The position numbers and the translations under genes were made by a program. Below the pieces are notes generated by a model that searched no databases, was not told where the DNA came from, and saw nothing but the letters and a program-made list of their open reading frames with translations. A DNA stretch of 23,956 nt from a virus, in UHGV virus genome UHGV-0168080; one strand, 5' to 3'. Positions within the stretch are counted from its first letter, which is position 1; each line of letters starts with the position of its first letter. This document shows, piece by piece, positions 4,823 through 21,685 of this stretch.

Positions 4823-5788
4823 TTAATTATCAGTAGATTGTTCCTCTAGTAACAACTCAATTTTGCTTAGTATTTCTTTAGATATTTTGCGGCTATCAAT
4901 TTTTATAGTTACAAAATTCCCTTTATATCTAGCCGTGATCCCTTCCCCATATTTTTTCTCGTCTTTTGTTTTTTCCTCGTCGCCAACCAGAACAGAGTCA
5001 GATAATATTTGTATAATCCGTGAAGCTTCTAAATCCTCGCCGTTTTTTTTTATTGTCAGAAGATGATGAGCAGCATTGCTCATGGCAGCCATGTTTTTTT
5101 TGTAAATCTTAAACAAAGAATCTCCAGCACGAGCTGACAGTTCTCCTGGATGATTGAAGATAGCTAATATATCTTTTGGTAGACCAGCTGTATTAATACA
5201 GCGAGTGATAATATTTCTATCTATATTTTCAGCCTCGGCCAATGCTTTAACGTTACCATCAAAGTCATTTAGCTTGCGTAAGTATCTCTTTCCTCTTTCG
5301 TATGCACTAATAGGCCTATAATCGTTACCAATTTGGGATAACCAATGCATCTGTTCATCGTCGAGATCACCAATTAAGACGCGATAGTCACATCCTGTTA
5401 ATATCGCTGCTTTTCTTCTACGTGAGCCGTCAGCGACTTCAACGATTCCAGATACTTTTCTGGCGAAAGCTGGATTTTGTTGTCCAGACGTTAGAAAAGA
5501 TGGGATTAAATCGGCTAGAGAGGATTCATTTAATAAATCTTGATCGCGTTCATTACCTAGCCATACCATTGTTGCCATTTCAACTTTATCTGCGGGAATT
5601 GTCTCTAACTTAAAGTTAACATTACGTCCGCATACTGGCAAAGTTATGCTGTTACCGGTTAATGAACTCAGTTGACGTTTTAAATCACCAACCATAGGTG
5701 ATACGGGCTGATGTTCAGGGGCATGATGATTATTACTCATAATGCGATTAATATCTGGAGCATTTTTTAGAAGAGAGCGCTGTTTCAT
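4823..5788 (-). CDS. sopB: Plasmid partition protein SopB (ParB family centromere-binding protein)
   Basis: 321 aa with F SopB-like blocks (ITLPVCGRNVNF, LGNERDQDLL, DGSRRRKAAILT, YRPISAYERG); start overlaps the sopA stop. Confidence 0.9.
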   Translation of the reverse strand: MKQRSLLKNAPDINRIMSNNHHAPEHQPVSPMVGDLKRQLSSLTGNSITLPVCGRNVNFKLETIPADKVEMATMVWLGNERDQDLLNESSLADLIPSFLTSGQQNPAFARKVSGIVEVADGSRRRKAAILTGCDYRVLIGDLDDEQMHWLSQIGNDYRPISAYERGKRYLRKLNDFDGNVKALAEAENIDRNIITRCINTAGLPKDILAIFNHPGELSARAGDSLFKIYKKNMAAMSNAAHHLLTIKKNGEDLEASRIIQILSDSVLVGDEEKTKDEKKYGEGITARYKGNFVTIKIDSRKISKEILSKIELLLEEQSTDN

Positions 5789-6954
5789 TATTCGTTCTCC
5801 CAGCGAGGTTTTATTAGATCATCAAAAATTTCTCTGCAAACAGGGTCCCATATAGAAACAGCATTTCTCCATGCATTCAATGTTGAACGTTGGTTTGCTG
5901 CTTGTTCAAATACTGTTCTCATTTTTATCTGGCCTTTACCTACTTCATCGGTAACGCGTACAACCTGACGTAATACCATTGATCCCCATGTATTTCTTAT
6001 TTGTTCTTCCATCCATCGTGATTGATTCCCTGTAGTGAGACTATATTTAGTCAGAAGTAAGCGAACGGTTGGCTCAAATCCACCTAGGTCAACGCTTTCC
6101 AATAGATCGAGAAGCATTGTGAAAAACTGTAGAACAGAAGCGTAATCAAATAATTCTGCAGGTGTAGCAACAACAATAACGTCAGCGGCACAAACAACGT
6201 TAATGGTTCCTGTACCGAGGTTCGGAGCACTATCTATAACGATAACATCGTAGTTATCCCAAACTGATTCAATAGCTGCGCGCAGCATAAGGTGTGGAGG
6301 ATGAGGCAATTTACCCTGAGCATGATATTGCATGAGATCTGTTTCTATACGATGTAAAGCTAGGCAGCTAGGGATAATGTCTAGCCCAGGCCAACATGTT
6401 GGCTTTATAGCATATTCAGCGTTATCGCGTTCTCCTAAGTAAAATGGCAGTAAAGTATCCTCGGCATGGATATGTAAATCAGGAACATAACCGTGATACA
6501 TAGAGGCTGTACCTTGAGGATCGTTACCTTCAACCAAAAGAACACGATGACCTTGTAATGCTAACCATTGAGCTTGATGTACCGCAGACGATGTTTTATA
6601 AACGCCGCCTTTGTGTGACATAACGGCAAGAACAACAGGGTTTTTATCTTGTGGTCGTTGGTTTGGGTTGCCAAAAACTGCTCGCATACTGTTGATTTGA
6701 TCTATGGTATAACCAGCACGACGTTCAATTCTTCCTCTCATTTCAAAGTCAGGTGCAGGTAAACGCCCGCTCTTCTCAGCATCTCTAATTGCTTGAGGAG
6801 TTACACCAATTAAATCTGCTACTTCAGTAATACCCCATCGGCGGGTGATACGCCGAGCTTCAGGACTATCATCACCGAATTGAGCGATAGCAATTGCTTG
6901 GGTCATTTCTTGACCTCTCGTAACACAATCTTGCAATAGCTTTTTCAAAGACAT
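5788..6954 (-). CDS. sopA: Plasmid partition ATPase SopA (type Ia ParA)
   Basis: 388 aa, collinear with F SopA as I recall it; deviant Walker A KGGVYKTS; N-terminal HTH extension (AIAIAQFGDDSPEARRITRRW); RBS GGAG upstream. Confidence 0.95.
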   Translation of the reverse strand: MSLKKLLQDCVTRGQEMTQAIAIAQFGDDSPEARRITRRWGITEVADLIGVTPQAIRDAEKSGRLPAPDFEMRGRIERRAGYTIDQINSMRAVFGNPNQRPQDKNPVVLAVMSHKGGVYKTSSAVHQAQWLALQGHRVLLVEGNDPQGTASMYHGYVPDLHIHAEDTLLPFYLGERDNAEYAIKPTCWPGLDIIPSCLALHRIETDLMQYHAQGKLPHPPHLMLRAAIESVWDNYDVIVIDSAPNLGTGTINVVCAADVIVVATPAELFDYASVLQFFTMLLDLLESVDLGGFEPTVRLLLTKYSLTTGNQSRWMEEQIRNTWGSMVLRQVVRVTDEVGKGQIKMRTVFEQAANQRSTLNAWRNAVSIWDPVCREIFDDLIKPRWENE

Positions 6955-7053: not shown

Positions 7054-7242
7054 GAGAATTTTTAAGCTAAATCATCTTTTGTTCCCCTCCCGAAATGCAT
7101 AAAACGAACAACAACATAATCATAAGTAATTGATATTTATTATATTTTTTGAAGAAAGGAAATCATGTAAAACTAGGGAAACATGATAAGAATCATCAAT
7201 GAGATACGTTTTCTCTATTAGTTCTCCCAACCTTACCAATAC

Positions 7243-7310
7243 AAGAACACAAATAAAGAACACAAAAACTAAGTAATGATGCAAACATAATAAAGAACAC
7301 AAATAAAGAA
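7243..7310. repeat. 18-bp direct repeat AAGAACACAAATAAAGAA (x2) plus a further AACACAAA copy on the left flank of the telomere site
   Basis: Exact 18-mer at 7243-7260 and 7293-7310; the reverse-complement motif ATTGTGTT recurs on the right flank (7481, 7503, 7562). Confidence 0.6.
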
Positions 7311-7391
7311 TTAAAGCTAAATGTTAAATAAAGCAGTACACAAAATGAGAATATTACACTAAATAAGAACACTAATCAAGAACATAACGAA

Positions 7392-7433
7392 ACATAATTC
7401 CCCATTATACGCGCGTATAATGGGGAATTATGT
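7392..7433. other. Telomere-resolution site (telRL/tos core): 42-bp perfect palindrome with a central CGCGCG
   Basis: ACATAATTCCCCATTATACGCGCGTATAATGGGGAATTATGT is its own reverse complement, with symmetry centre at 7412/7413. The central 22 bp (CCATTATACGCGCGTATAATGG) is identical to the N15 telO core as I recall it, and the site lies directly upstream of telN. Confidence 0.85.
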
Positions 7434-7603
7434 ACTGATTATCGAAACAAAGTCAAGGAACAAAATTTCACGTTCTGCTATTGTGTTTCATTTTATAGTC
7501 TGATATTGTGTTCTACTATTTTGTGAGTAAGTTAACTAGGTATTGGTTATTTTATTCTTAAATTGTGTTACGATAATCTGAGCGGATAATCAGGAGAAGA
7601 AAG

Positions 7604-9493
7604 ATGAGCAAAGTAAAAATCGGTGAATTAATAAACTCACTTGTTAGCGATGTTGAGTCAATAGATAACTCTGACCGTCCTCAAGGAGAGAAAACAAAAA
7701 AAATAAAGGCCGTTGCATTAAAATTTAAAAATACATTATTTAATGATAAGCGAAAGTTTAGGGGAAAAGGATTAGAAAAGAGAATTACAGCCAACACATT
7801 CAATTCCTATATGAGCAGGGCCAGAAAACGGTTTGATGATAAACTTCATCATAGTTTTGAAAAAAATATACATCGACTATCTGAAAAATATCCTTTATAT
7901 AATGAGGAGCTATTGTCATGGCTCTCTCTACCTGCTGCCGATATTCGCCGGAGAATGTCAGCTTTACAGGCAAAATTAAAATTAATTATTCCTCTGTCCG
8001 AAGATTTATCTAATATCAGAATTGGTGATAATAAAAATAATAATAAGTTAATAAAGTTATCAAATAAATATAAAGAATGGCAATTTGCCATTTCTGATTT
8101 AACTAGCGATAACTGGAAAGATAAACGCGATTATTTATATAAATTACTACAGCAAGGGTCAGCCTTGCTTGAGGAGTTGAATCAGTTAAAGGTTAACCAT
8201 GAGATTCTCTATCATCTCAAACTAAGCCCTGCCGAACGCGCATCTATCCAGCAACGATGGGCGGACGTACTACACAATAAGAAACGTAACGTAGTAGTCA
8301 TTGACTACCCTAAATATATGCAAGCTATTTACGATATTATAAATAGCCCTGCTACATTAAATAATCTAAACACTCGTTCAGGCATGGCTCCTTTGGCATT
8401 TGCTCTTGCTGCATTATCAGGAAGACGAATGATTGAGATTATGTATCAAGGTACATTTACTGTCTCTGGTAAGTATACCGTTGATTTTTTAGGTCAGGCT
8501 AAAAAAAGAACTACTGATGATGTAACCAGAAAAATATATACATTATGCGAAGCAAAAACGTTTGTTTATTTAATAAATGTACTTCGCTCATGCCCAGCAG
8601 CATCTGATTTTGATGAAGTCGTTATGGGTTACGGAAATAACGACACGCGGTCTGAAAACGGACGTATTAATGCCATATTGGCAAAGGCTTTTAATCCATG
8701 GGTTAAATCATTTTTCAATGATAATCGCCGTGTTTATAAAGATAGTCGTGCTATTTATGCCCGTATTGCGTATGAAATGTTTTTCCGCGTAGATCCCCGT
8801 TGGAAAAATGTAGATGAAGATGTTTTCTTTATGGAAATTTTAGGCCATGACGATGAAAACACTCAATTACACTATAAACAATTCAAGCTGGCCAACTTCT
8901 CAAAGACATGGAGGCCAAATACTGGAAACGAAAATACCAGGCTGGAAGCATTGCAGCTGCTTGATGACGAAATGCCTGGATTCGCCAGAGGAGATGCCGG
9001 GGTTCGTCTGCATAACACAGTTAAGCAGCTGGTAGAGCAGGACCCCTCTATAAAAATCACGAACAGCACTCTAAGAGCATTCAAATTTAGCCCAACAATG
9101 ATTAGTCGATACCTGGAATTTGCTGCTGATGCTCTGGGGCAATTTGTTGGCGAAAATGGACAATGGCAGCTGAAAATAGATACTCCAGAAATCGTTATGC
9201 CTGACGAAGAAGAGCTGGAAGCAATACCTGAACAGATGGATGAATTATCAGAGGATGACGATCTGGATGACGACGAAATTGAGATAGAGGAAGAGGAAGA
9301 GAGCGTAGAAGAACAGCAACCGCCAGCGCCTTCTTCACCTGTATCTAAGCCGGTATTTAAGCCTGTGAGAAATATTGGTGATGGCTCATACGTTGTTGAG
9401 TTTCATTATAATGGCCAGAATTATGCGTGGTCAGGCAGTGCAAACAGCCCCATGTCAGCAATGCAGTTAGCATGGCTGACATATTTCGGCTAA
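7604..9493 (+). CDS. telN: Protelomerase TelN (hairpin telomere resolvase)
   Basis: 629 aa; near-collinear with N15 TelN from the N-terminus (MSKVKIGELIN...DRPQG.KTK.IKA...NDKRKFRGKGL.KRITANTFN.YMSRARKRFDDKLHHSF) to the C-terminus; acidic C-terminal tail; RBS AGGAGAAG. Confidence 0.95.
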   Translation: MSKVKIGELINSLVSDVESIDNSDRPQGEKTKKIKAVALKFKNTLFNDKRKFRGKGLEKRITANTFNSYMSRARKRFDDKLHHSFEKNIHRLSEKYPLYNEELLSWLSLPAADIRRRMSALQAKLKLIIPLSEDLSNIRIGDNKNNNKLIKLSNKYKEWQFAISDLTSDNWKDKRDYLYKLLQQGSALLEELNQLKVNHEILYHLKLSPAERASIQQRWADVLHNKKRNVVVIDYPKYMQAIYDIINSPATLNNLNTRSGMAPLAFALAALSGRRMIEIMYQGTFTVSGKYTVDFLGQAKKRTTDDVTRKIYTLCEAKTFVYLINVLRSCPAASDFDEVVMGYGNNDTRSENGRINAILAKAFNPWVKSFFNDNRRVYKDSRAIYARIAYEMFFRVDPRWKNVDEDVFFMEILGHDDENTQLHYKQFKLANFSKTWRPNTGNENTRLEALQLLDDEMPGFARGDAGVRLHNTVKQLVEQDPSIKITNSTLRAFKFSPTMISRYLEFAADALGQFVGENGQWQLKIDTPEIVMPDEEELEAIPEQMDELSEDDDLDDDEIEIEEEEESVEEQQPPAPSSPVSKPVFKPVRNIGDGSYVVEFHYNGQNYAWSGSANSPMSAMQLAWLTYFG

Positions 9494-13603: not shown

Positions 13604-16600
13604 TTACCCATAGAAAGCGCCCTGCTCTTCGTAGCTGCATGGGCTATTCCCGGTAATATATTCACGTAACCGCCGCAGTTCATTACTGGACAAGTGATCC
13701 ATGAACTCTGTTAGGTACAGAGATGCAAACGTCATAGCTATGCTGGCTGATGACCATGATGACATAGTGGCCAGCTCCTCACAGGAAAGCGCACTCATAG
13801 CCCAGGACTCAGGTACAGCCACCGGCAACACTGCCAAAGCCTCAGAAATTACTGAATGAGGGGCGTTTTGAACCTGCTCATTTGTGGATCGCGTTTTATC
13901 ATCCATATATATATTGAGATCCAAATCGCGATCCATTTCGATGGCGGTCTTCTCGGCTTTGCGCGTTTTCAGGGTTAGGCCATCTTTCTGACGCTGAGCA
14001 AGAATATCCAGCATAAATGCCGCTGATTCAGGCTCAACAAAACGCAAGGTTGGACGCTTATCGCCGTCTCTGCCACGACGTTTACCTGTTTTAAGGCCAA
14101 GAGAGTCGCAAATGTTTTTAAACAACGCTTCCGGCACTTTAGGCTTCCCTTTTGGCGTCATAAAACCACCAATGTGCAGAACGTTATTCAACAGGTCACG
14201 GCGTTCGGCTGTCATGAGGTTATCTCGAGCGAATTTGAGACGCTCCTGAGTCGCCTCGCCGGTCATAGTCTCAGGGTTGATACCGCAGTCGATAAAGTAC
14301 TGCCGGAGAGTTGCTGATTTAAGCGCATAGAAACCGCGCGCCCCGACTTCAACAGTAGGAGTAGCTTTTACCTTGTAGTCGATTATTCCAGGGAATTTAG
14401 TTTTAAAGACATCATCAGCCTGCTCGCGAGTCATCGCGGTCACTACAAAATATTGCCACTGTCCCGCCTGACGGTATGCGTAGGTAAAATTGATGGCTGC
14501 TTCTTCCCGGTCGTAACGACGAGCTGTTACCTCATCTAAAAGCATTGTTTCATAGCGGCGAACTTTGTCTCGAGCACCATCGAAATAGAATTTCAGCGTG
14601 CCTTCTTCAACCGGTAGTTTCAGTTCGTTCTCAATATCCCAGCGGACAAGTTTTGCCTGTTCTTCAAGCGTCAGCGCGCGTTTTTTTAGCAGTTCTTCAC
14701 GCTCTGATTCTTGTGGAGTTTCTGTATTGAGATGCAGATCCAGTGTCTGTTCCCACACAATATCCCGCGCTTCTTTACGCAGATCTTTACCGATATCATT
14801 CGCAGCATAATCGGTGGCCAGCGGCGATACCTTATAACCGTCGCTGTGCATGATGCAGATCATGTTGCTGGCGTAGTCGTTACGCGCAGACGCTTCAATT
14901 GCGGCTGCTTTAATTTTCATCCTGGTAAAGTCGGTATTGGCCACCCCCATTGATATACGGTCGCCATCGAAAACGACATCCGTCAGTTCACCGTTCATGC
15001 CTGCGGTAGCAAGCAATGCCTGGGCGAATGCTCGTTCTATTTTTTGCGGGTCAGTTTCACGTTTTGCGCGAGCTTTATCAAAGCCGATAATAAATTCTTT
15101 TGCTGTACGGTCGCGGCGTAGCATTTGCACTGCGTCGCTGGGTACAACTTCACCACAGAACATGCCGAAATGACGGTCAAAATGTTTTTGCTCAATCGAC
15201 ACGCCGGATGAAATAGACGGGCTATAAATCAGGCCGTCGTATTTTTTGACCATCTTTTTCGGTTGATTGGTAAATGCTTCAACTTCTGGCTCTGGTTTGT
15301 TTTTCTGGTTTACACACAGAAATTTCTTACCAGGAAAATGCATTCTCAGGGTGGCGGTCACATCTTCTGCAAAGGTGGAGCTGTCGGTGGCCAACATAAT
15401 TTTTTCGCCATCCGATACAGCTTTCACCACCTCGGTCATAATGCGATCTTTTTCTGTATAAAAAACCCGGATTGGCTCACCTGTTTCGCGGTTGCGAACA
15501 TCAACAGGTAATTCAATTACGTGGATCTGCAGCCATGCGGGTAAACCGAGTTCTTCGCGGCGTTTCATAGCCAGTTCAGCCAGGTCAACCAGCAGATCGT
15601 TCGCATCAGCATCCACCATGATTGGGTGTTGTTCCGTTCTGGCCAGCGCATCAATTAGCGTATTGAATACAGCCACCGGGTTTTCCATAGCCCGACCGGA
15701 AAGAACGGCACGTAGCCCTTGTGTTGCCTCGTCAAAGCCAAAATAGTCGTGCTGGCGCATCAACGGTTGCCAGCAGTTTTTAACAATCGAGTTTATGCAG
15801 ATGGTCAGTTTACTGGCGTATGGGGCCATTTCCTGATAGCCAGGGTCCTGATAGTGCAGGATATCGGCTTTTACACCTTTTCCTTCAGTCATCATTTCCC
15901 ACAGACCACCAATAAGGGAAACACGGTGAGCTACAGAGATACCACGTTCTGAGCTATGCATTAACGGTCGTAACAATCCAGTAGATTTGCCGGAACCCAT
16001 ACCAGCACGGACGATGACTATCCCCTGTAGTGATTGCACGTACTTCAGGACGTCATCGGTCATTACCGAAGTATCAAAACGCTTATAGGTGATATGTTGA
16101 GGGCGTTTATTGGGATCAGTTATGCGTTCGCTGAAAGAGCGCGGAGCCTGGGCAATACGGCACTTTTTATTCAGGCGACGGGCAATATGGTCTTTTACCG
16201 TAGCGCGATAGATATTTTCCAGCCCCATTTCACGCAGAACGATACAGAACATGTTAAATAAATCTGACGGGCTGTTAGGAACCGGACAGGTCAGCATGCC
16301 AATATCTACCGCTCTCAGCAGCTCTTTGGCAAAAGTACGGCGGTTATCCCGCTTAATTGTCTTCAGGCGGTTGAGTGTCAGAGATAGCAAATCAGTACCG
16401 GTTTTCAGGCGGTTTGCTGTTGCGAATAGTTGACGTGCTGTTTCACGAAGTCCACGTAGTTTGTGCAGGTCGTTGAAGTCACTGCACTCCATTTGCGGAT
16501 CGTCTTCAAAAGTTGGGTAGACGCAGCGGACATCGTTGAATTTAGATAAGATTTCATAGCCAGTCCGCAGGCCGGTATTCCCTTTTCCTTCTGTGGCAGA

Positions 16601-17599
16601 TTTCCGGTCATTATCCAGTGCGCAGGTGATTTTTGCCGCCGGGTACATGTTTACCAGTTGTTCCACAACATGAACCATGTTGTTAGCGGATACAGCGACA
16701 ACCACAGCGTCAAAGCGTTTATCTTTTTTCGTGGCAAGCCAGATGGATGCACCAGTAGCAAAACCTTCTGTAACAGCGATGTTTTGCGCCCCTTTCAGCT
16801 CACCGATAACAAAGCAGGCACCGACGAAATCGCCGCTGGTTACTGCGCTGGTCTGGTATTTCCCACCTTGTTTGTCGATTCGCTGCCAACCCACAATACG
16901 ACCATCATAACGACCGTCCAGGTGAGCCAGAGGGATAGCCATATATGTGGTTGGCCCCCGGCTCCATTTCGCACTGTCGTGACTGGTCACGCGACGCACA
17001 TCACATGAACTAAAAACGTCACGAATACCTTTTTTAATCGCATATGGCCATGAGCCGTCTTCAGCCTGAGCATGTTCCCACGCGCTGTGGAATGCCAGCC
17101 ATCCCAGCAAACGTTCATGGTCCATTTGGTTGTTTTTCAGGTCATTAATTCGTTTTTGTTCTTCACGGCGACGACGTGCTTCGGCCTGACGTTCTATTCT
17201 TTCCCGTTCTTCTTCCGGTTGTGCGACCACGGTCGCATTATTCCGTTGTTGCTCACGGCGATATTCAGAAAACAGGAAGGAGAAACCGCTCCATGAGCCA
17301 GCATCGCTGCCTTTATGGACGAAGTTAATGAACGGGTAATCAATCCCTTTGCTGTGTTCCAGCCTGGAGTAAATTTCTACGCGTCCTTTCAGGCTCTTTT
17401 CGAGAGCTTCTGGAGATGTTTTATTGTATGAAGAGTAACGCTCAACCCCCCCGCGAGGGTTGAGTTGGATGTTGTCGGAACAGGCAGGCCAGTTGATACC
17501 AGCCATCTGTGCCAGCTCGGTTAGTTCATCCCGTGCTGCTTCAATTAGCGAGAACGGATCGCTGCCAAAGCGATCCGCATAGAAATCGTTTAATGTCAT
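13604..17599 (-). CDS. repA: Replication protein RepA (multidomain primase-helicase, N15 RepA-like)
   Basis: 1331 aa; Walker A GMGSGKSTG inside a helicase-like core; size and position (upstream of cB, same strand) match N15 repA. Confidence 0.92.
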   Translation of the reverse strand: MTLNDFYADRFGSDPFSLIEAARDELTELAQMAGINWPACSDNIQLNPRGGVERYSSYNKTSPEALEKSLKGRVEIYSRLEHSKGIDYPFINFVHKGSDAGSWSGFSFLFSEYRREQQRNNATVVAQPEEERERIERQAEARRRREEQKRINDLKNNQMDHERLLGWLAFHSAWEHAQAEDGSWPYAIKKGIRDVFSSCDVRRVTSHDSAKWSRGPTTYMAIPLAHLDGRYDGRIVGWQRIDKQGGKYQTSAVTSGDFVGACFVIGELKGAQNIAVTEGFATGASIWLATKKDKRFDAVVVAVSANNMVHVVEQLVNMYPAAKITCALDNDRKSATEGKGNTGLRTGYEILSKFNDVRCVYPTFEDDPQMECSDFNDLHKLRGLRETARQLFATANRLKTGTDLLSLTLNRLKTIKRDNRRTFAKELLRAVDIGMLTCPVPNSPSDLFNMFCIVLREMGLENIYRATVKDHIARRLNKKCRIAQAPRSFSERITDPNKRPQHITYKRFDTSVMTDDVLKYVQSLQGIVIVRAGMGSGKSTGLLRPLMHSSERGISVAHRVSLIGGLWEMMTEGKGVKADILHYQDPGYQEMAPYASKLTICINSIVKNCWQPLMRQHDYFGFDEATQGLRAVLSGRAMENPVAVFNTLIDALARTEQHPIMVDADANDLLVDLAELAMKRREELGLPAWLQIHVIELPVDVRNRETGEPIRVFYTEKDRIMTEVVKAVSDGEKIMLATDSSTFAEDVTATLRMHFPGKKFLCVNQKNKPEPEVEAFTNQPKKMVKKYDGLIYSPSISSGVSIEQKHFDRHFGMFCGEVVPSDAVQMLRRDRTAKEFIIGFDKARAKRETDPQKIERAFAQALLATAGMNGELTDVVFDGDRISMGVANTDFTRMKIKAAAIEASARNDYASNMICIMHSDGYKVSPLATDYAANDIGKDLRKEARDIVWEQTLDLHLNTETPQESEREELLKKRALTLEEQAKLVRWDIENELKLPVEEGTLKFYFDGARDKVRRYETMLLDEVTARRYDREEAAINFTYAYRQAGQWQYFVVTAMTREQADDVFKTKFPGIIDYKVKATPTVEVGARGFYALKSATLRQYFIDCGINPETMTGEATQERLKFARDNLMTAERRDLLNNVLHIGGFMTPKGKPKVPEALFKNICDSLGLKTGKRRGRDGDKRPTLRFVEPESAAFMLDILAQRQKDGLTLKTRKAEKTAIEMDRDLDLNIYMDDKTRSTNEQVQNAPHSVISEALAVLPVAVPESWAMSALSCEELATMSSWSSASIAMTFASLYLTEFMDHLSSNELRRLREYITGNSPCSYEEQGAFYG
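13885..13935. other. Candidate internal replication origin element inside the 3' end of repA
   Basis: 9-bp inverted repeat TGGATCGCG (13885-13893) / CGCGATCCA (13927-13935) flanking an (AT)5 tract. Confidence 0.3.
17222..17237. repeat. sopC-like centromere box TGCGACC-AC-GGTCGCA (candidate SopB binding site) inside repA
   Basis: 16-bp palindrome with the same architecture as the F sopC core TGGGACC-AC-GGTCCCA. Confidence 0.5.
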
Positions 17600-17647
17600 T
17601 TTTTAGCCATTCCATGCGAATTATGTTTTTTCGGGTTGAAAAAATCC

Positions 17648-17715
17648 GCAGGAGCAGCCACAATAAACGCATCTTGAATTGACGGAATCTGTCGCGTTGT
17701 TGTGGCTGCTTCCTG
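17648..17715. repeat. Long imperfect inverted repeat in the repA leader
   Basis: GCAGGAGCAGCCACAATAAACGC ... GCGTTGTTGTGGCTGCTTCCTG, arms about 22 bp, spacer about 23 bp. Confidence 0.5.
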
Positions 17716-17722
17716 AAAAGGA

Positions 17723-17750
17723 CCCGAGTTTGCCGACTCGGGTTTTTTTT
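17723..17750 (+). terminator. Strong intrinsic terminator on the plus strand, antisense to the repA leader
   Basis: Stem ACCCGAGT/ACTCGGGT, loop TGCCG, followed by T8. Confidence 0.6.
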
Positions 17751-17844
17751 CGTCTTTTTTCTGCTGCTGTAACCTGAGTCAACCCACAGAACATATGCCC
17801 TGCATTAAACCAGATTTACAGCAAACAATAAACCCCGTATTAAG

Positions 17845-18441
17845 TCATCTACCCTCAACCATGAATGATTTGATCGTTCCGACTATTTGGTGAACAAATT
17901 CAAGATCGCTTTTCCTGAAGATGGCGCGTTGTGAGTTTGTTCCATCCAGATAGTAATTTTCATCATCAAAACGGGCCAGGCGCTGGATAGTGATATTTCC
18001 TGCAGTATCACGAACCAGAACATCCTCGCCGGGGACCAGTTCCAGCGCAGAATCGACCAGGAGAAAATCGCCTGGCTGATAGTTTCCCTGCGTAAGATTG
18101 CTGATAGTTAACGCATAAACAGTATTGCGCTGGCTGATGAATGGCAGGAATCGCTCAGTATTTGGAACCTGTCCTGGCTTCCACTCTTCATCAGGTCCAC
18201 TTTCAGTTGTGCCAATAACAGGAATGCGATCAGGGTCATATTCTGTCCCATACAGCACCCAATGCACTGGCTTGCGTAAGCATTTAGCCAGGGCAATACC
18301 TATCTCCAGTGACGGCATTACGTCGCCACGTTCTAAGTTTTGGACGCCTGCAATAGAGATATCGACAGCCTCAGCAACTTCTCGCAACGTCAGCTTCATC
18401 TCTAAACGGCGTGCTTTCAGTCGTTCGCCTCGTGTTTTCAT
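17845..18441 (-). CDS. cB: Prophage repressor CB (CI-like: N-terminal XRE HTH plus C-terminal LexA/S24-like domain)
   Basis: 198 aa; HTH LTLREVAEAVDISIAGVQNLERG; C-terminal region aligns by eye to the LexA/CI fold; divergent from cro across an operator region. Confidence 0.85.
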   Translation of the reverse strand: MKTRGERLKARRLEMKLTLREVAEAVDISIAGVQNLERGDVMPSLEIGIALAKCLRKPVHWVLYGTEYDPDRIPVIGTTESGPDEEWKPGQVPNTERFLPFISQRNTVYALTISNLTQGNYQPGDFLLVDSALELVPGEDVLVRDTAGNITIQRLARFDDENYYLDGTNSQRAIFRKSDLEFVHQIVGTIKSFMVEGR

Positions 18442-18463
18442 AGCTTAATCATAAATGATCTTC

Positions 18464-18505
18464 TTATAGCTGGCTATAAAATTTATTTATTATAGCTGGC
18501 TTTAA
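18464..18505. promoter_or_regulatory. Tandem palindromic operators TTATAGC-TG-GCTATAA between cB and cro
   Basis: Perfect copy at 18464-18479 and near-perfect copy (TTATAGCTGGCTTTAA) at 18490-18505, 26 bp centre-to-centre. Confidence 0.6.
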
Positions 18506-18532
18506 TTGTTGTTTATTGTTTATAATAACAAC

Positions 18533-18754
18533 ATGAAACCAGAAGAACTTATTCGCCACTTTGGCAGTGTAGAAAAAGCAGCGGCAGGGGTAGGTGTAAC
18601 ACCCGGAGCTGTTTACCAATGGTTAACCGCTGGAGAGATTCCTTCATTGCGGCAAAGCGATATTGAAGTTCGTACTGCTTATAAGCTGAAGAGTGACTTT
18701 ACAACTCGGCGGGTAAAGCAGTCGATTAAGGAGAGTCGTAAGCGTGGAGCTTGA
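18533..18754 (+). CDS. cro: Cro-like repressor (HTH)
   Basis: HTH segment GSVEKAAAGVGVTPGAVYQWL; divergent from cB. The ATG at 18533 has no clear SD (the ORF-track start at 18506 is TTG), so the start is uncertain. Confidence 0.6.
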   Translation: MKPEELIRHFGSVEKAAAGVGVTPGAVYQWLTAGEIPSLRQSDIEVRTAYKLKSDFTTRRVKQSIKESRKRGA

Positions 18755-19454
18755 GTATATACGCAGCTGCGTCTCTACGGCATTGGCTGATGTTCATTAT
18801 CGCCAGCGTGGCATTCTGGAGGTCCAGCTTGAGCAGATGCGTCTCGGTAGATCAGGACGGTTTAACAATAAACCAGTCCGGTCAATCAGTGTGGGGGATG
18901 ATAACTCATACGAAGTGTCCGTTCCTGCTGAGCCGGTAAGATTCCACCAGGGGAAAACATTTAAACAATCATCAATGTTGCTCACTGATATTGATTTTCA
19001 GAGCGCCAGCTGGCGCAGGGCTATTGGTCAGTTGAATAACGAGGAATCAGCCTGGCTTTATTATTGCTACGGATGCAAGCCAGATTACAACAATGATGTG
19101 ATTGTTTGTCAGTGGTTATGGCTTGATTTTCTGGTTGCTCATTCGGGGGGCGGCTTTAAAAAAATGAAGGCCTCCACGAAAAAAGCCATGCGGAAATTGA
19201 TTTATTACGCGGCACAGCAGGTTAAATCAGAACTTACGTGTGCTGAGGCAGTTGATGAGAGAGAACAGGACAGGCATCTGAGTTTTCTGCTGAATATATC
19301 TATTGATAGCTGGAGACAAGATTATAAAGAACGCTGGCTTTTAATTAAGTCGCGATGTCTGAGCTTAAATCGAACTGCATTATTAAATGCGGCGGAGAAG
19401 CGCAGTGAAATCATCAAACGCCATCGGGCAGGAAGTGCCATTCTGCCTTTGTAA
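18744..19454 (+). CDS. Putative late-gene antiterminator (Q-like by position) or unknown early protein
   Basis: 236 aa; GTG start with strong RBS AAGGAGAG; lies directly after cro as Q does in N15. The family is not confirmed from sequence. Confidence 0.35.
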   Translation: MELEYIRSCVSTALADVHYRQRGILEVQLEQMRLGRSGRFNNKPVRSISVGDDNSYEVSVPAEPVRFHQGKTFKQSSMLLTDIDFQSASWRRAIGQLNNEESAWLYYCYGCKPDYNNDVIVCQWLWLDFLVAHSGGGFKKMKASTKKAMRKLIYYAAQQVKSELTCAEAVDEREQDRHLSFLLNISIDSWRQDYKERWLLIKSRCLSLNRTALLNAAEKRSEIIKRHRAGSAILPL

Positions 19455-19707
19455 ACAAGTTATGTTCAGGAAACCGTCGAAGCCAGAATTAAGGTATTCG
19501 GGGGTAAGAAATGAATATGTTATCTGGTGTCCAACTTGTGGTTACAGGACACGACCAGATAGTAATAAGCAGTCTGTAATTGCCGATTGGTATTTATCAA
19601 ATCAGCCAGGTAATAAGCATATAGAAAATCTTTGGATTAAGCGTTACTTGGAAATCAGAGAGGGTGCGACCGTGGTCGCACAAGAAAATGAAAATAACGC
19701 CATTTAA
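19387..19707 (+). CDS. Small putative zinc-ribbon protein (start uncertain)
   Basis: Cys pairs CLC...CPTC; the 5' end overlaps the preceding gene, and the true start may be internal (ATG at 19462). Confidence 0.45.
   Translation: MRRRSAVKSSNAIGQEVPFCLCKQVMFRKPSKPELRYSGVRNEYVIWCPTCGYRTRPDSNKQSVIADWYLSNQPGNKHIENLWIKRYLEIREGATVVAQENENNAI
19664..19681. repeat. sopC-like centromere box GTGCGACC-GT-GGTCGCAC (second copy)
   Basis: 18-bp palindrome with 8-bp arms and the same core as the copy at 17222. Confidence 0.5.
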
Positions 19708-19717
19708 GCAGGGGCCG

Positions 19718-19891
19718 ATGACGCATGATGAAGCAGAGCGTCTTTCAGATACTTATCGGCGGCGTGGTAAGAAAGTTCTGGTTGTTCGTTCTGATTTTTT
19801 AGGTGATGGATATTGCGTTTATGTTCATTTACCTGAATCAGAAAGAACGCCAAAACCATCCAGAACATATCAACAGAAAATTTGGGTATAG
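19718..19891 (+). CDS. Small hypothetical protein
   Basis: ATG at 19718 with AGGGG 4 nt upstream; alternative in-frame starts at 19664 (GTG) and 19688 (ATG). Confidence 0.35.
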   Translation: MTHDEAERLSDTYRRRGKKVLVVRSDFLGDGYCVYVHLPESERTPKPSRTYQQKIWV

Positions 19892-19914
19892 ATAAACGTT
19901 GAGGAGAATTATTC

Positions 19915-20514
19915 GTGACTAATCAGATTATTTACGACAGGAAACGGTCTGATGTAATGATTGACCTTGAAACAATGGGTACTAACACATGTGCTCCAAT
20001 TGTTTCTATCGGGGCAGTGTTTTTTTCTCCAGAAAATGAGGAATTAGGTCCTACTTTTTATGTGCCAGTGAATCTCAGAAGCTCGATGTTGAATGGTGGT
20101 GTCGCCGATGGTGATACCATTTTATGGTGGTTGAAACAGAGCAAGGAAGCCAGAGCCGCAATTTGTACTAATGATGCCCTTGATATTAAGGATGCACTTT
20201 TTGAATTATCACACTTTATTACTTGCCATGCATGTAATTTAAAAAAATTGAAAGTATGGGGAAATGGAGCAACGTTCGATAATGTAATTTTACGCGGTGC
20301 TTATGAGCGCGTTGGCTTAGCCTGTCCGTGGGAATATTTTAATGATCAGGATGTTCGAACAATCGTTAATCTTGGTCAGTTTATTGGTTTTAATCCTAAA
20401 AAAGATATGCCATTTGATGGCGAACGACACAATGCCCTGGCTGATGCTATTCATCAGGCTAAATATGTATCCGCAATTTTCTCCCGTCTTGTAAAAGGGC
20501 AAGGAGAATCGTAA
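19915..20514 (+). CDS. DEDDh-family 3'-5' exonuclease
   Basis: Motifs MIDLETMG (Exo I D-x-E) and ERHNALADA (Exo III H-x4-D); GTG start with RBS GAGGAG (alternative ATG at 19957). Confidence 0.75.
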   Translation: MTNQIIYDRKRSDVMIDLETMGTNTCAPIVSIGAVFFSPENEELGPTFYVPVNLRSSMLNGGVADGDTILWWLKQSKEARAAICTNDALDIKDALFELSHFITCHACNLKKLKVWGNGATFDNVILRGAYERVGLACPWEYFNDQDVRTIVNLGQFIGFNPKKDMPFDGERHNALADAIHQAKYVSAIFSRLVKGQGES

Positions 20515-20936
20515 TGGCAAAGGCTTTTACACCAGAACAGAGGGAAGAACTGAATAAACAAATTGTGGAACTCGTACGCCTGAATGGACGAGGAACGGTT
20601 AGGCAACTTGCGGATGAAACTGGTATTAGCCGGTGTGCTGTTAGTCGTTTATCAAGAGAGCTTGCTGCCAGTGGTGATTTGTATATCTCTGGCTCCGGGA
20701 TATTTCTGTCTGCACAAGCACGCAAGGACTGGCAAAACGCCCGTAAAAAGCTATCAAGAGTAAAGCCGAAGAAATCGGTAGTGGTTGATCCAGACCTTAT
20801 CTGGTCATTACCTGACGGAGAAATACGTCGTTACGACAGGCGCTTGAACATGATTTGTCACGATTGCCAGAAGAGCGAAGTTATGCAGCGTGTGCTGGCG
20901 TTTTATCAGGGAAATCTTCAGGAGGTAGTACTGTGA
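20514..20936 (+). CDS. HTH-domain protein (putative regulator)
   Basis: HTH-like GTVRQLADETGISRCAVSRLSREL; start overlaps the exonuclease stop (TAATG); RBS AGGAG. Confidence 0.65.
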   Translation: MAKAFTPEQREELNKQIVELVRLNGRGTVRQLADETGISRCAVSRLSRELAASGDLYISGSGIFLSAQARKDWQNARKKLSRVKPKKSVVVDPDLIWSLPDGEIRRYDRRLNMICHDCQKSEVMQRVLAFYQGNLQEVVL

Positions 20937-21685
20937 GTGAAATCAATTATCAGGTACTGCGTGAGATAGCAAAACAGGCAACACAGGGTGAATGGGTCGC
21001 ATTTATTTCGCCGGGTACTGGTACGTATGCAGTGCATACGCCCGGTGATAAACGATGTGAAGACGTTATCAAATGGACCGGCTTTGACGGACAGAAAAAC
21101 GCAGAGAACAACGCTCATTATATCGCAGCTTTCAACCCTGAAGTAGTGCAGGCACTGCTGGATGAACGAGAGGCTCAAAGCAAACGCATTGCAGAGCTGG
21201 AGGCCAGTTGCGCGGCTCTGGCGGCGGAGAATGCAAGACTGAAGGCCGGGGCTATGTATTTCTCATATGGCTCTGAATTTAGTTTCGAGTGTCACAAAAC
21301 TGCTGAGGAGGCTATCGCTGCTGCTGAGGCTGCAATTGACGACTATAGAGGCGATGCTTGCGATGGATGGAGCGAAGAGGTCGAAAGCATTTGCTGGGGG
21401 GTAATTATTCAGCAGGCAACCAAGGTCGGTGAACGCAAGAAGAGGAAATGCGACAGAGTATCACCATGGATTGAAAGAGTTTGTGATTATGAGCTTCGAC
21501 CTAATGTCGAAACCCCAGCCACCGACTCTTTCCTGTCTGAAGTGCGGGCGCAGGGGGTGGAAATGTTTGCACAGAAATGTAACTCAAAATCCGAACAGTC
21601 GCTTGCATCTGATATACGCGATAACTGGAAACTACTCGGTGAGCATGCGACTGACTTTGCCGCAGAGATTCGCAAAGGAGAGTGA
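20933..21685 (+). CDS. Ea22-like coiled-coil protein
   Basis: GTG start overlapping the upstream stop (GTGA) with RBS GGAGG 7 nt upstream; motif AAFNPEVVQALLDEREAQSKRIAELEA is typical of lambdoid Ea22-family proteins. The ORF-track extension to 20855 is rejected. Confidence 0.55.
   Translation: MSEINYQVLREIAKQATQGEWVAFISPGTGTYAVHTPGDKRCEDVIKWTGFDGQKNAENNAHYIAAFNPEVVQALLDEREAQSKRIAELEASCAALAAENARLKAGAMYFSYGSEFSFECHKTAEEAIAAAEAAIDDYRGDACDGWSEEVESICWGVIIQQATKVGERKKRKCDRVSPWIERVCDYELRPNVETPATDSFLSEVRAQGVEMFAQKCNSKSEQSLASDIRDNWKLLGEHATDFAAEIRKGE

What the first reader, a model, noticed from the sequence alone, without database searches (positions are those of the whole stretch)
19664..19681. Second sopC-like palindrome, overlapping small early genes
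GTGCGACC-GT-GGTCGCAC (8-bp arms) carries the same core as the repA copy. It lies at the 3' end of the zinc-ribbon ORF and the start region of the next small ORF, where SopB binding and spreading could silence neighbouring early genes.
Basis: partly seen in the sequence, partly recalled or inferred. Interest (0 to 1): 0.55.

Follow-up and report, generated by a model that had tools for sequence, protein, structure and literature searches.

The report
SopB centromere site, N15 IR2 ortholog
The palindrome is real and is the counterpart of a known docking site (IR2 of phage N15) for the SopB protein, which keeps this linear plasmid-prophage inherited at cell division; this makes it an ordinary new example of a known element, not a new gene-silencing device.

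Summary
GTGCGACC-GT-GGTCGCAC sits exactly at 19664-19681. The window is an N15-like linear plasmid-prophage carrying sopA, sopB, protelomerase, repA and Q.

The site is the positional and sequence ortholog of N15 IR2, one of four dispersed SopB-binding centromere sites. phiKO2 annotates the same place as a "putative plasmid partitioning site".

The site lies in the 3' tail of a conserved Lar-like zinc-ribbon ORF, but coding constraint does not explain it:
- Across 16 distinct relatives, all 5 four-fold-degenerate codons in the arms are frozen at the third base, while all 11 such codons elsewhere in the ORF vary.
- Only the 2-bp centre varies, and it changes the amino acid.
- In PY54-like relatives the syntenic site carries F-plasmid-type arms (TGGGACC), and the SopB recognition helix changes with it (D-R-N to S-R-K).

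The most likely function is SopB loading for partition. By analogy with N15, it may also help Q-dependent late transcription.

The overlap with the next ORF's start depends on an unlikely GTG start.

Verdict: new member of a known kind, low interest.

The parts
19664..19681 (.). The finding: 18-bp palindrome GTGCGACC-GT-GGTCGCAC. The 16-bp SopB-site core TGCGACC-GT-GGTCGCA is at 19665-19680. It is the ortholog of N15 IR2.
   Evidence: Exact match. Flanks match the N15 IR2 oligo GTCAAAGAGGGTGCGACCTCGGTCGCACGAGATAATGAA. Arms are invariant in 16 distinct relatives.
17221..17238 (.). Sister site GTGCGACC-AC-GGTCGCAT inside repA, ortholog of N15 IR1. It is read in the same codon register (A-T-V-V-A) as the 19664 copy.
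4823..5788 (-). sopB: ParB-type centromere-binding protein with an N15-type recognition helix (D-R-N-I-I-T-R) and the equivalent of F SopB R219.
   Evidence: 73% identity to N15 SopB. Pfam SoPB_HTH, E = 8.5e-25. Matches the F SopB-DNA crystal chain 3mky, E = 1.3e-38. Alignment.
5788..6954 (-). sopA: Walker-type partition ATPase, partner of SopB.
   Evidence: Pfam AAA_31, CbiA and ParA hits. Position matches N15 gene 28.
19387..19707 (+). Lar-like zinc-ribbon ORF (about 100-106 aa) that hosts the site in its C-terminal tail. It overlaps the 3' end of Q by 68 nt.
   Evidence: Homologous but unannotated ORF in N15 at 35653-35973.
19718..19891 (+). Small downstream ORF (57 aa from ATG 19718). The 75-aa form starting at GTG 19664 would overlap the palindrome.
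   Evidence: Annotated from the ATG in PhiR46_1 and called as 57 aa on L029. Homolog present in N15.
18744..19454 (+). Q-type antiterminator gene immediately upstream of the site, the same arrangement as N15 gene 40 followed by IR2.
   Evidence: Pfam Phage_antiter_Q, E = 4e-84. N15 map.
13604..17599 (-). repA (primase/helicase replication protein), which contains the sister site.
7604..9493 (+). Protelomerase TelN. Context showing that the replicon is a linear plasmid-prophage and so needs active partition.
   Evidence: Pfam TelK_N, muzzle, catalytic and stirrup domains.

Best explanation
The palindrome is one of several dispersed centromere (parS/sopC-type) sites of an N15-like linear plasmid-prophage, and is the ortholog of N15 IR2.

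Proposed mechanism:
1. A dimer of the phage's own SopB (4823-5788) recognises the 16-bp core TGCGACC-RY-GGTCGCA, using its helix-turn-helix plus a second arginine equivalent to F SopB R219.
2. This nucleates a larger SopB-DNA partition complex, together with the sister sites: 17221 in repA, and further copies just beyond the right end of the window.
3. The complex stimulates the SopA ATPase, so that plasmid-prophage copies are separated into both daughter cells.

Shown here: sequence identity to the N15 site, synteny, DNA-level purifying selection independent of the host ORF, and covariation of site type with the SopB recognition helix.

Inferred by homology: actual binding, partition activity, and a probable second role in late transcription. 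In N15, IR2 next to Q and IR3 next to the late promoter are reported to help Q-dependent late transcription, and the window's relatives have the same IR3-late-promoter module.
For: (1) The window is an N15-type telomere phage. It is 98-99% identical to PhiR46_1 and YDC107_1 and about 76% to N15 over 17000-21000, and it carries sopA, sopB, telN and Q.

(2) N15 has the same core at four places. The IR1-IR4 oligos in PMC7205306 identify the copy downstream of Q as IR2, with flanks like those in the window. That paper also shows that N15 SopB forms foci on the IR array.

(3) The phiKO2 GenBank record annotates four "putative plasmid partitioning site" features at the same four syntenic places. PhiR46_1 has 5 perfect cores, and Salmonella, Klebsiella and Enterobacter relatives have 4 each.

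(4) Codon test. All 5 four-fold-degenerate codons in the arms are invariant at the third base in 16 distinct sequences, against 0 of 11 such codons elsewhere in the ORF (Fisher p = 2.3e-4). The 2-bp centre varies (GT, AC, AT, GC, TC) and changes the residue (V, T, M, A, S).

(5) The centre is purine-pyrimidine in 54 of 56 distinct site contexts. This matches the Pu-Py requirement measured for F SopB and sopC.

(6) Natural specificity swap. PY54 and the L022/L032 lineage carry F-type cores TGGGACCnnGGTCCCA at the syntenic places, including the tail of the same ORF and repA. Their SopB helix, known for PY54, reads S-R-K as in F, against D-R-N in the GCG-arm phages.

(7) The window's SopB is 73% identical to N15 SopB.

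(8) The element occurs only on plasmids, never on chromosomes, in 17 of 5426 complete E. coli genomes.
Against: There is no binding or stability experiment for this phage; everything functional is by homology.

A single IR copy has only been shown (in N15, from memory of the literature) to suffice for partition. The contribution of this particular copy is unknown.

The sequences in the codon test are phylogenetically related, so the Fisher p-value overstates independence.

The SopB of the L022/L032 lineage could not be retrieved, so the helix-site covariation rests on 4 GCG-type proteins against 2 GGG-type proteins.
Confidence: 0.9

Rival explanations
1. The palindrome is only a by-product of the amino-acid sequence (E-G-A-T-V-V-A) required by the zinc-ribbon protein.
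For: The peptide EGATxVA is conserved in 11 of 12 homologs, and the ORF is genuinely coding: it is Lar-like and shows abundant synonymous change elsewhere.
Against: Third positions of all five four-fold codons in the arms are frozen, while all 11 others in the ORF vary. The one variable spot changes the amino acid freely. The same DNA recurs in repA on the other strand and in intergenic places. In PY54 and L022 the peptide changes to G-T-x-V-P exactly as the DNA site type changes.
Confidence: 0.02
2. The site acts mainly as a SopB-dependent regulatory element rather than a centromere. One version is the reader's idea: silencing or roadblocking of the neighbouring early genes. The other is that it pairs with the IR3-type site to bring Q to the late promoter.
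For: Induced N15 SopB silences a weak promoter about 50 bp from a 4xIR array. [quoted passage not shown] From memory of its abstract, IR2 and IR3 mutants delay lysis. A site next to the late promoter and terminator is conserved in PhiR46_1, N15, phiKO2 and PY54. The placement of a site right after Q is conserved even across the specificity swap.
Against: There are no expression data here. Silencing was shown only with an artificial array and induced SopB. No promoter-like site was found near the palindrome. A regulatory role and a centromere role are not mutually exclusive.
Confidence: 0.1
3. It works as an RNA hairpin in the early-right transcript, for example as a terminator, a processing or stability element, or a translational coupling device for the next ORF.
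For: The transcript can form a 7-bp GC-rich stem with a 4-nt loop at the palindrome. The symmetric arm change in PY54-type phages would also preserve a hairpin.
Against: No T-run follows on either strand, and the terminator scan does not report it. Folding of the region is not unusual (z = -1.64; 15 of 200 shuffles fold as well). There is no Rfam match at the palindrome. The arms are sequence-invariant rather than merely complementary, and the identical sequence recurs in unrelated contexts and orientations.
Confidence: 0.03
4. It is the binding site of another dimeric protein, for example a repressor, the zinc-ribbon protein itself or a host factor.
For: Any perfect palindrome could serve a dimeric DNA-binding protein.
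Against: The core differs from F sopC at only one position per arm. It is the sequence used as the N15 SopB target. It covaries with the SopB recognition helix.
Confidence: 0.02

Closest known systems
N15 IR2 (SopB-binding centromere site downstream of gene 40/Q, N15 coordinates 35930-35947)
   Same: Identical 8-bp arms. Homologous flanks (AGAGG...GAxAATGAA). Same position in the tail of the same zinc-ribbon ORF just after Q. Cognate SopB 73% identical.
   Different: The central dinucleotide is GT here and TC in N15, so the host protein has Val instead of Ser. The phage backbone is only about 76% identical.
phiKO2 "putative plasmid partitioning site" at 40345-40362 (GenBank AY374448)
   Same: An 18-bp feature at the syntenic place after Q, one of four dispersed copies, with the same arms.
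   Different: The centre is AC. It is annotated only as putative, and phiKO2 is a Klebsiella phage.
F plasmid sopC
   Same: A 16-bp palindrome with 7-bp arms around a purine-pyrimidine centre, bound by a homologous SopB through its HTH plus R219. The window's SopB matches the F SopB-DNA crystal chain.
   Different: F has 12 tandem 43-bp repeats next to sopB; here there are single dispersed copies and no tandem array. The arms differ at position 3 (GGG in F, GCG here). The recognition helix is S-R-K in F and D-R-N here. F SopB does not function with N15 sites, whereas N15 SopB accepts both.
PY54 dispersed F-type sites, and the L022/L032 telomere-phage lineage
   Same: The same architecture: copies in repA, in the tail of the Lar-like ORF after Q, and before the late promoter.
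   Different: The arms are F-type TGGGACC. PY54 has eight copies. Its SpyB has the F-type helix.

Membership tests
N15-type dispersed SopB centromere sites (IR1-IR4) | 16-bp core TGCGACC-NN-GGTCGCA identical to the N15 IR consensus | tested here: met
   Exact core at 19665-19680. N15 cores. Published IR oligos.
N15-type dispersed SopB centromere sites (IR1-IR4) | Orthologous position and flanks (downstream of Q = IR2) | tested here: met
   Flank alignment and the shared host ORF. phiKO2 annotation at the same place.
N15-type dispersed SopB centromere sites (IR1-IR4) | Several dispersed copies on the same replicon | tested here: met
   Two copies in the window. Five in the near-identical complete genome PhiR46_1 and four in other relatives.
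N15-type dispersed SopB centromere sites (IR1-IR4) | Cognate SopB (N15-type HTH and R219 equivalent) and SopA encoded by the element | tested here: met
N15-type dispersed SopB centromere sites (IR1-IR4) | Selection on the DNA sequence itself, beyond any coding constraint | tested here: met
   5 of 5 four-fold sites in the arms are frozen against 0 of 11 elsewhere, p = 2.3e-4. The repA copy shows the same pattern.
N15-type dispersed SopB centromere sites (IR1-IR4) | SopB binds the site, and the site stabilises a plasmid when SopAB are supplied | not testable with these tools
   Needs EMSA, ChIP and plasmid-loss assays. Foci on the N15 IR array are published.
F-type sopC centromere | Tandem array of 43-bp repeats adjacent to sopB | tested here: not met
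   No such array in the window. The copies are dispersed.
F-type sopC centromere | Consensus TGGGACC-Pu-Py-GGTCCCA | tested here: not met
   Two mismatches (position 3 of each arm) at both window sites. The Pu-Py centre is met (GT and AC).
Intrinsic (rho-independent) terminator | GC-rich hairpin followed by a T-run | tested here: not met
   The palindrome is followed by AAGAAAATG on the + strand and CCTCTCTGA on the - strand. It is not reported by the terminator scan.

The most novel reading that the evidence does not exclude
SopB complexes nucleated at a site embedded in the early-right operon, immediately after Q, might do more than partition. In this reading, SopB-mediated pairing with the IR3-type site next to the late promoter, or local spreading, sets the timing of Q delivery or dampens read-through into the downstream early genes. 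The placement of a centromere site in the tail of the Lar-like ORF would then be selected for regulation, which would explain why it is kept at this place even in lineages that switched to F-type site specificity.
Probability: 0.2. Interest if true: 0.45.

Novelty: new member of a known kind. Interest (0 to 1): 0.2.

Why it matters
The result lets this unannotated site in E. coli N15-like plasmid-prophages (PhiR46_1 and YDC107_1 type) be labelled as a partition site, and it corrects the idea that it is a silencer of early genes.

The comparative by-products are modest but useful. They give a clean example of a protein-binding DNA site dictating the sequence of two different host proteins. They also show a natural covariation between SopB recognition-helix residues (D-R-N against S-R-K) and position 3 of the centromere arm, which could guide specificity engineering of ParB/parS labelling tools.

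Tried and rejected
Primary literature. I tried to read the primary N15 papers: Ravin & Lane 1999 (PMC94163) and Ravin, Rech & Lane 2008 (DOI and PMC2394991). None is held. What I say about single-IR sufficiency and about IR2/IR3 mutants delaying lysis is therefore from memory. Only the title and citation were confirmed.

Retrieving the SopB of the F-type L022/L032 lineage. The IMG/VR contig starts at the protelomerase end and does not reach sopAB, so this was unresolved.

The first related-loci scan with the zinc-ribbon protein returned only near-identical loci. Diversity came instead from the protein search and contig look-ups.

Rejected readings:
- Terminator or RNA element.
- F-like tandem sopC array.
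- Weaker extra sites in the window: the three 3-mismatch hits at 1731, 5835 and 18225 are only modestly above the chance expectation of 0.69 (the largest shuffle count equals 3) and were not pursued.

Full report
**Observation.** The sequence GTGCGACC-GT-GGTCGCAC is present exactly at 19664-19681. The 16-bp core TGCGACCnnGGTCGCA occurs perfectly only twice in the window. The other copy is at 17222-17237 inside repA, where the 8th arm position is mismatched.

A perfect 8-bp-arm palindrome alone is not remarkable, because about a dozen unrelated ones occur in the 24-kb window. What exceeds chance is the recurrence of this specific core. With up to 3 mismatches, 0.01 matches are expected and 4 strand-matches (2 sites) are found; 0 of 100 shuffles reach that. 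The core's identity to a known consensus adds to this.

**What the window is.** The region 17000-21000 is 98-99% identical to Escherichia phages PhiR46_1 and YDC107_1 and about 76% identical to N15, phiKO2 and relatives. The window encodes the following:
- SopB at 4823-5788 on the minus strand (SoPB_HTH domain; 73% identical to N15 SopB).
- SopA at 5788-6954 on the minus strand.
- A protelomerase at 7604-9493.
- A 1331-aa RepA at 13604-17599 on the minus strand.
- A Q antiterminator at 18744-19454.

An uncut telRL-type palindrome lies between sopA and telN. The same DNA is found in 17 of 5426 complete E. coli genomes, always on plasmids and never on chromosomes. It also occurs in 214 PLSDB plasmids, mostly from Klebsiella. 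This is therefore an N15-like linear plasmid-prophage that needs active partition.

**Identity of the site.**
- N15 carries the same core at four places: in repA, downstream of gene 40 (Q), upstream of the late promoter, and near gene 58.
- The oligonucleotide table of PMC7205306 names these IR1-IR4. It gives IR2 as GTCAAAGAGGGTGCGACCTCGGTCGCACGAGATAATGAA, which is the N15 copy downstream of Q.
- The window reads ...CAGAGAGGGTGCGACCGTGGTCGCACAAGAAAATGAA..., so the arms are the same and the flanks are homologous.
- That paper shows N15 SopB forming foci on an array of the four IRs. It states that F SopB does not work with them, while N15 SopB accepts both site types.
- The phiKO2 GenBank record annotates four 18-bp "putative plasmid partitioning site" features at the same four syntenic positions.
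- PhiR46_1 has five perfect cores. Salmonella, Klebsiella-metagenome and Enterobacter relatives have four each, always including one in repA and one right after Q.

The finding is therefore the IR2 ortholog, and the repA copy is the IR1 ortholog.

**Is it just coding constraint?** The site lies in the C-terminal tail of a 100-106-aa zinc-ribbon ORF (19387-19707). The ORF gives a weak Lar_restr_allev hit (E = 3.6e-4, below the Pfam gathering score). It overlaps the end of Q. It is unannotated in N15 and PhiR46_1 but conserved in N15, phiKO2, PY54 and Vibrio telomere phages.

I aligned 16 distinct DNA versions of the ORF:
- Every one of the 11 conserved four-fold-degenerate codons outside the palindrome varies at its third base.
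- All 5 such codons inside the arms (GGT, GCG, ACC, GTC, GCA) are invariant. Fisher p = 2.3e-4, with the caveat that the sequences are related.
- The only variable part is the 2-bp centre (GT, AC, AT, GC, TC), and it changes the amino acid (V, T, M, A, S).
- Over all fetched loci, 54 of 56 distinct site contexts have a purine-pyrimidine centre. This matches the requirement measured for F SopB on sopC.

The repA copy behaves the same way and is read in the same register, giving A-T-V-V-A in RepA too.

**A natural specificity swap.** The most divergent homolog of the host ORF (L022, and the related IMG/VR contig L032/L033, which carries a protelomerase) has no GCG-type core. Instead it has F-plasmid-type cores TGGGACCnnGGTCCCA at the syntenic places: the tail of the zinc-ribbon ORF, inside repA, and after the gp51-like gene.

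PY54 has eight such F-type cores, again including repA, the tail of its Lar-like ORF44, and the site before the late promoter. In these phages the host peptides read G-T-x-V-P instead of A-T-x-V-A, so the proteins follow the DNA site.

The SopB recognition helix covaries with the arm type:

| Arm type | Phage or plasmid | Helix motif |
|---|---|---|
| GCG | window, PhiR46_1, N15, phiKO2 | D-R-N-I-I/V-x-R |
| GGG | PY54 SpyB, F SopB | S-R-K-I-I-x-R |

R190, K191, R195 and R219 are the F SopB residues implicated in sopC recognition. The window protein keeps the equivalents of R190, R195 and R219. Pillet et al. already noted that F-consensus sites are dispersed on three phage genomes.

**Mechanism.** The best-supported reading has three steps. 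A SopB dimer binds the 16-bp core. It nucleates a partition complex together with the other dispersed copies. The complex then activates SopA to segregate the linear plasmid-prophage.
- Shown here: identity, synteny, DNA-level selection and protein-site covariation.
- Inferred by homology: binding and partition.

A second role is plausible. [quoted passage not shown] From memory of its abstract, IR2 and IR3 mutants delay lysis, and IR2 plus SopAB raise Q-dependent expression from the late promoter. The text itself is not held. The partner module, a site followed by the late promoter and terminator, is conserved in PhiR46_1, N15, phiKO2 and PY54. In this phage it would lie just beyond the right end of the window.

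The "SopB site" part is right.

The "silences neighbouring early genes" part is untested. Silencing of a weak promoter by induced N15 SopB next to a synthetic 4xIR array has been shown, so it is physically possible. However, no promoter-like site lies near the palindrome. The genes would also be off in lysogens under the prophage repressor (inference from N15). Published N15 work points to a positive effect on late genes.

The overlap with "the start region of the next small ORF" holds only for a GTG start at 19664. The ATG at 19718 is the start used in PhiR46_1 and in other gene calls.

**Rivals.**
- Pure coding constraint is excluded by the codon test and by the peptide swap.
- An RNA hairpin or terminator is unlikely for three reasons. 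There is no T-run and the terminator scan does not report it. Folding is unexceptional (z = -1.64). There is no Rfam match at the palindrome, and the identical sequence recurs in other contexts and orientations.
- There is no F-like tandem sopC array.

**Verdict.** This is a genuine, conserved SopB centromere site and a new member of a well-known kind (N15 IR2). Interest is low. The small added value is the DNA-over-protein constraint and the helix-site covariation.

Noticed in passing
window 19387-19707 (and N15 L002 35653-35973): A conserved Lar-like zinc-ribbon ORF overlaps the last 68 nt of Q. It is unannotated in N15 and PhiR46_1 and truncated to 81 aa in several gene calls, which removes the first Cys pair (CLC). 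Homologs sit after Q in N15, phiKO2, PY54 and Vibrio telomere phages such as VHML and VP585.
   Followed up: partly
window 17221-17238 and 19664-19681; PY54 L034 31240 and 34394: Both coding-embedded copies are read in the same register. They give Ala-Thr-x-Val-Ala in RepA and in the zinc-ribbon protein. In phages with F-type arms, both proteins read Gly-Thr-x-Val-Pro instead, so the DNA site dictates the peptide.
   Followed up: yes
L022 599-614 and 3750-3765; L032 65, 7572, 10311, 13089; L034 (PY54), eight sites: A divergent telomere-phage lineage and PY54 carry F-plasmid-type sopC cores (TGGGACCnnGGTCCCA) at the places where N15-type phages carry TGCGACCnnGGTCGCA. The SopB helix is S-R-K in the former and D-R-N in the latter. 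The SopB of the L022/L032 lineage could not be retrieved.
   Followed up: partly
window about 7391-7434: A long perfect palindrome, AACATAATTCCCCATTATACGCGCGTATAATGGGGAATTATGT, lies between sopA and telN. It is the uncut telRL protelomerase target, so the window shows the joined (phage-form or assembled-through) configuration rather than the hairpin ends.
   Followed up: partly
window 18464-18517: A 26-bp direct repeat (2.1 copies, TTATAGCTGGCTATAAAAGTTATTTA) lies between the repressor gene (17845-18441, minus strand) and the cro-like ORF (18506-18754). These are probably the immunity operators.
   Followed up: no
window 7238-7310 and 7356-7384: Degenerate 13-bp tandem repeats (AATAAAGAACACA-like) lie between sopA and the tel site. 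Their function was not examined.
   Followed up: no
L004 (YDC107_1, CP025712) and IMG/VR contig 3300045988_113976 (L008/L009): These records contain the telN-to-repA arm twice in inverted orientation. This looks like assembly read-through of the hairpin telomere rather than biology.
   Followed up: no
L003 14735-14900, L002 41106-41270, L025 43765-43930, L034 40957-41120 (outside the window): A module of centromere site, then about 20 nt, then the late promoter, then a strong terminator is conserved from PhiR46_1 to PY54. Only the site arms switch type. In this phage it would lie a few hundred bases beyond the right end of the window.
   Followed up: partly
N15 L002 45560-45584: N15 IR4 coincides with a stem-loop annotated as a putative rho-independent terminator and is followed by a T-run. 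That copy may therefore double as a terminator, unlike the IR2-type copy studied here.
   Followed up: no
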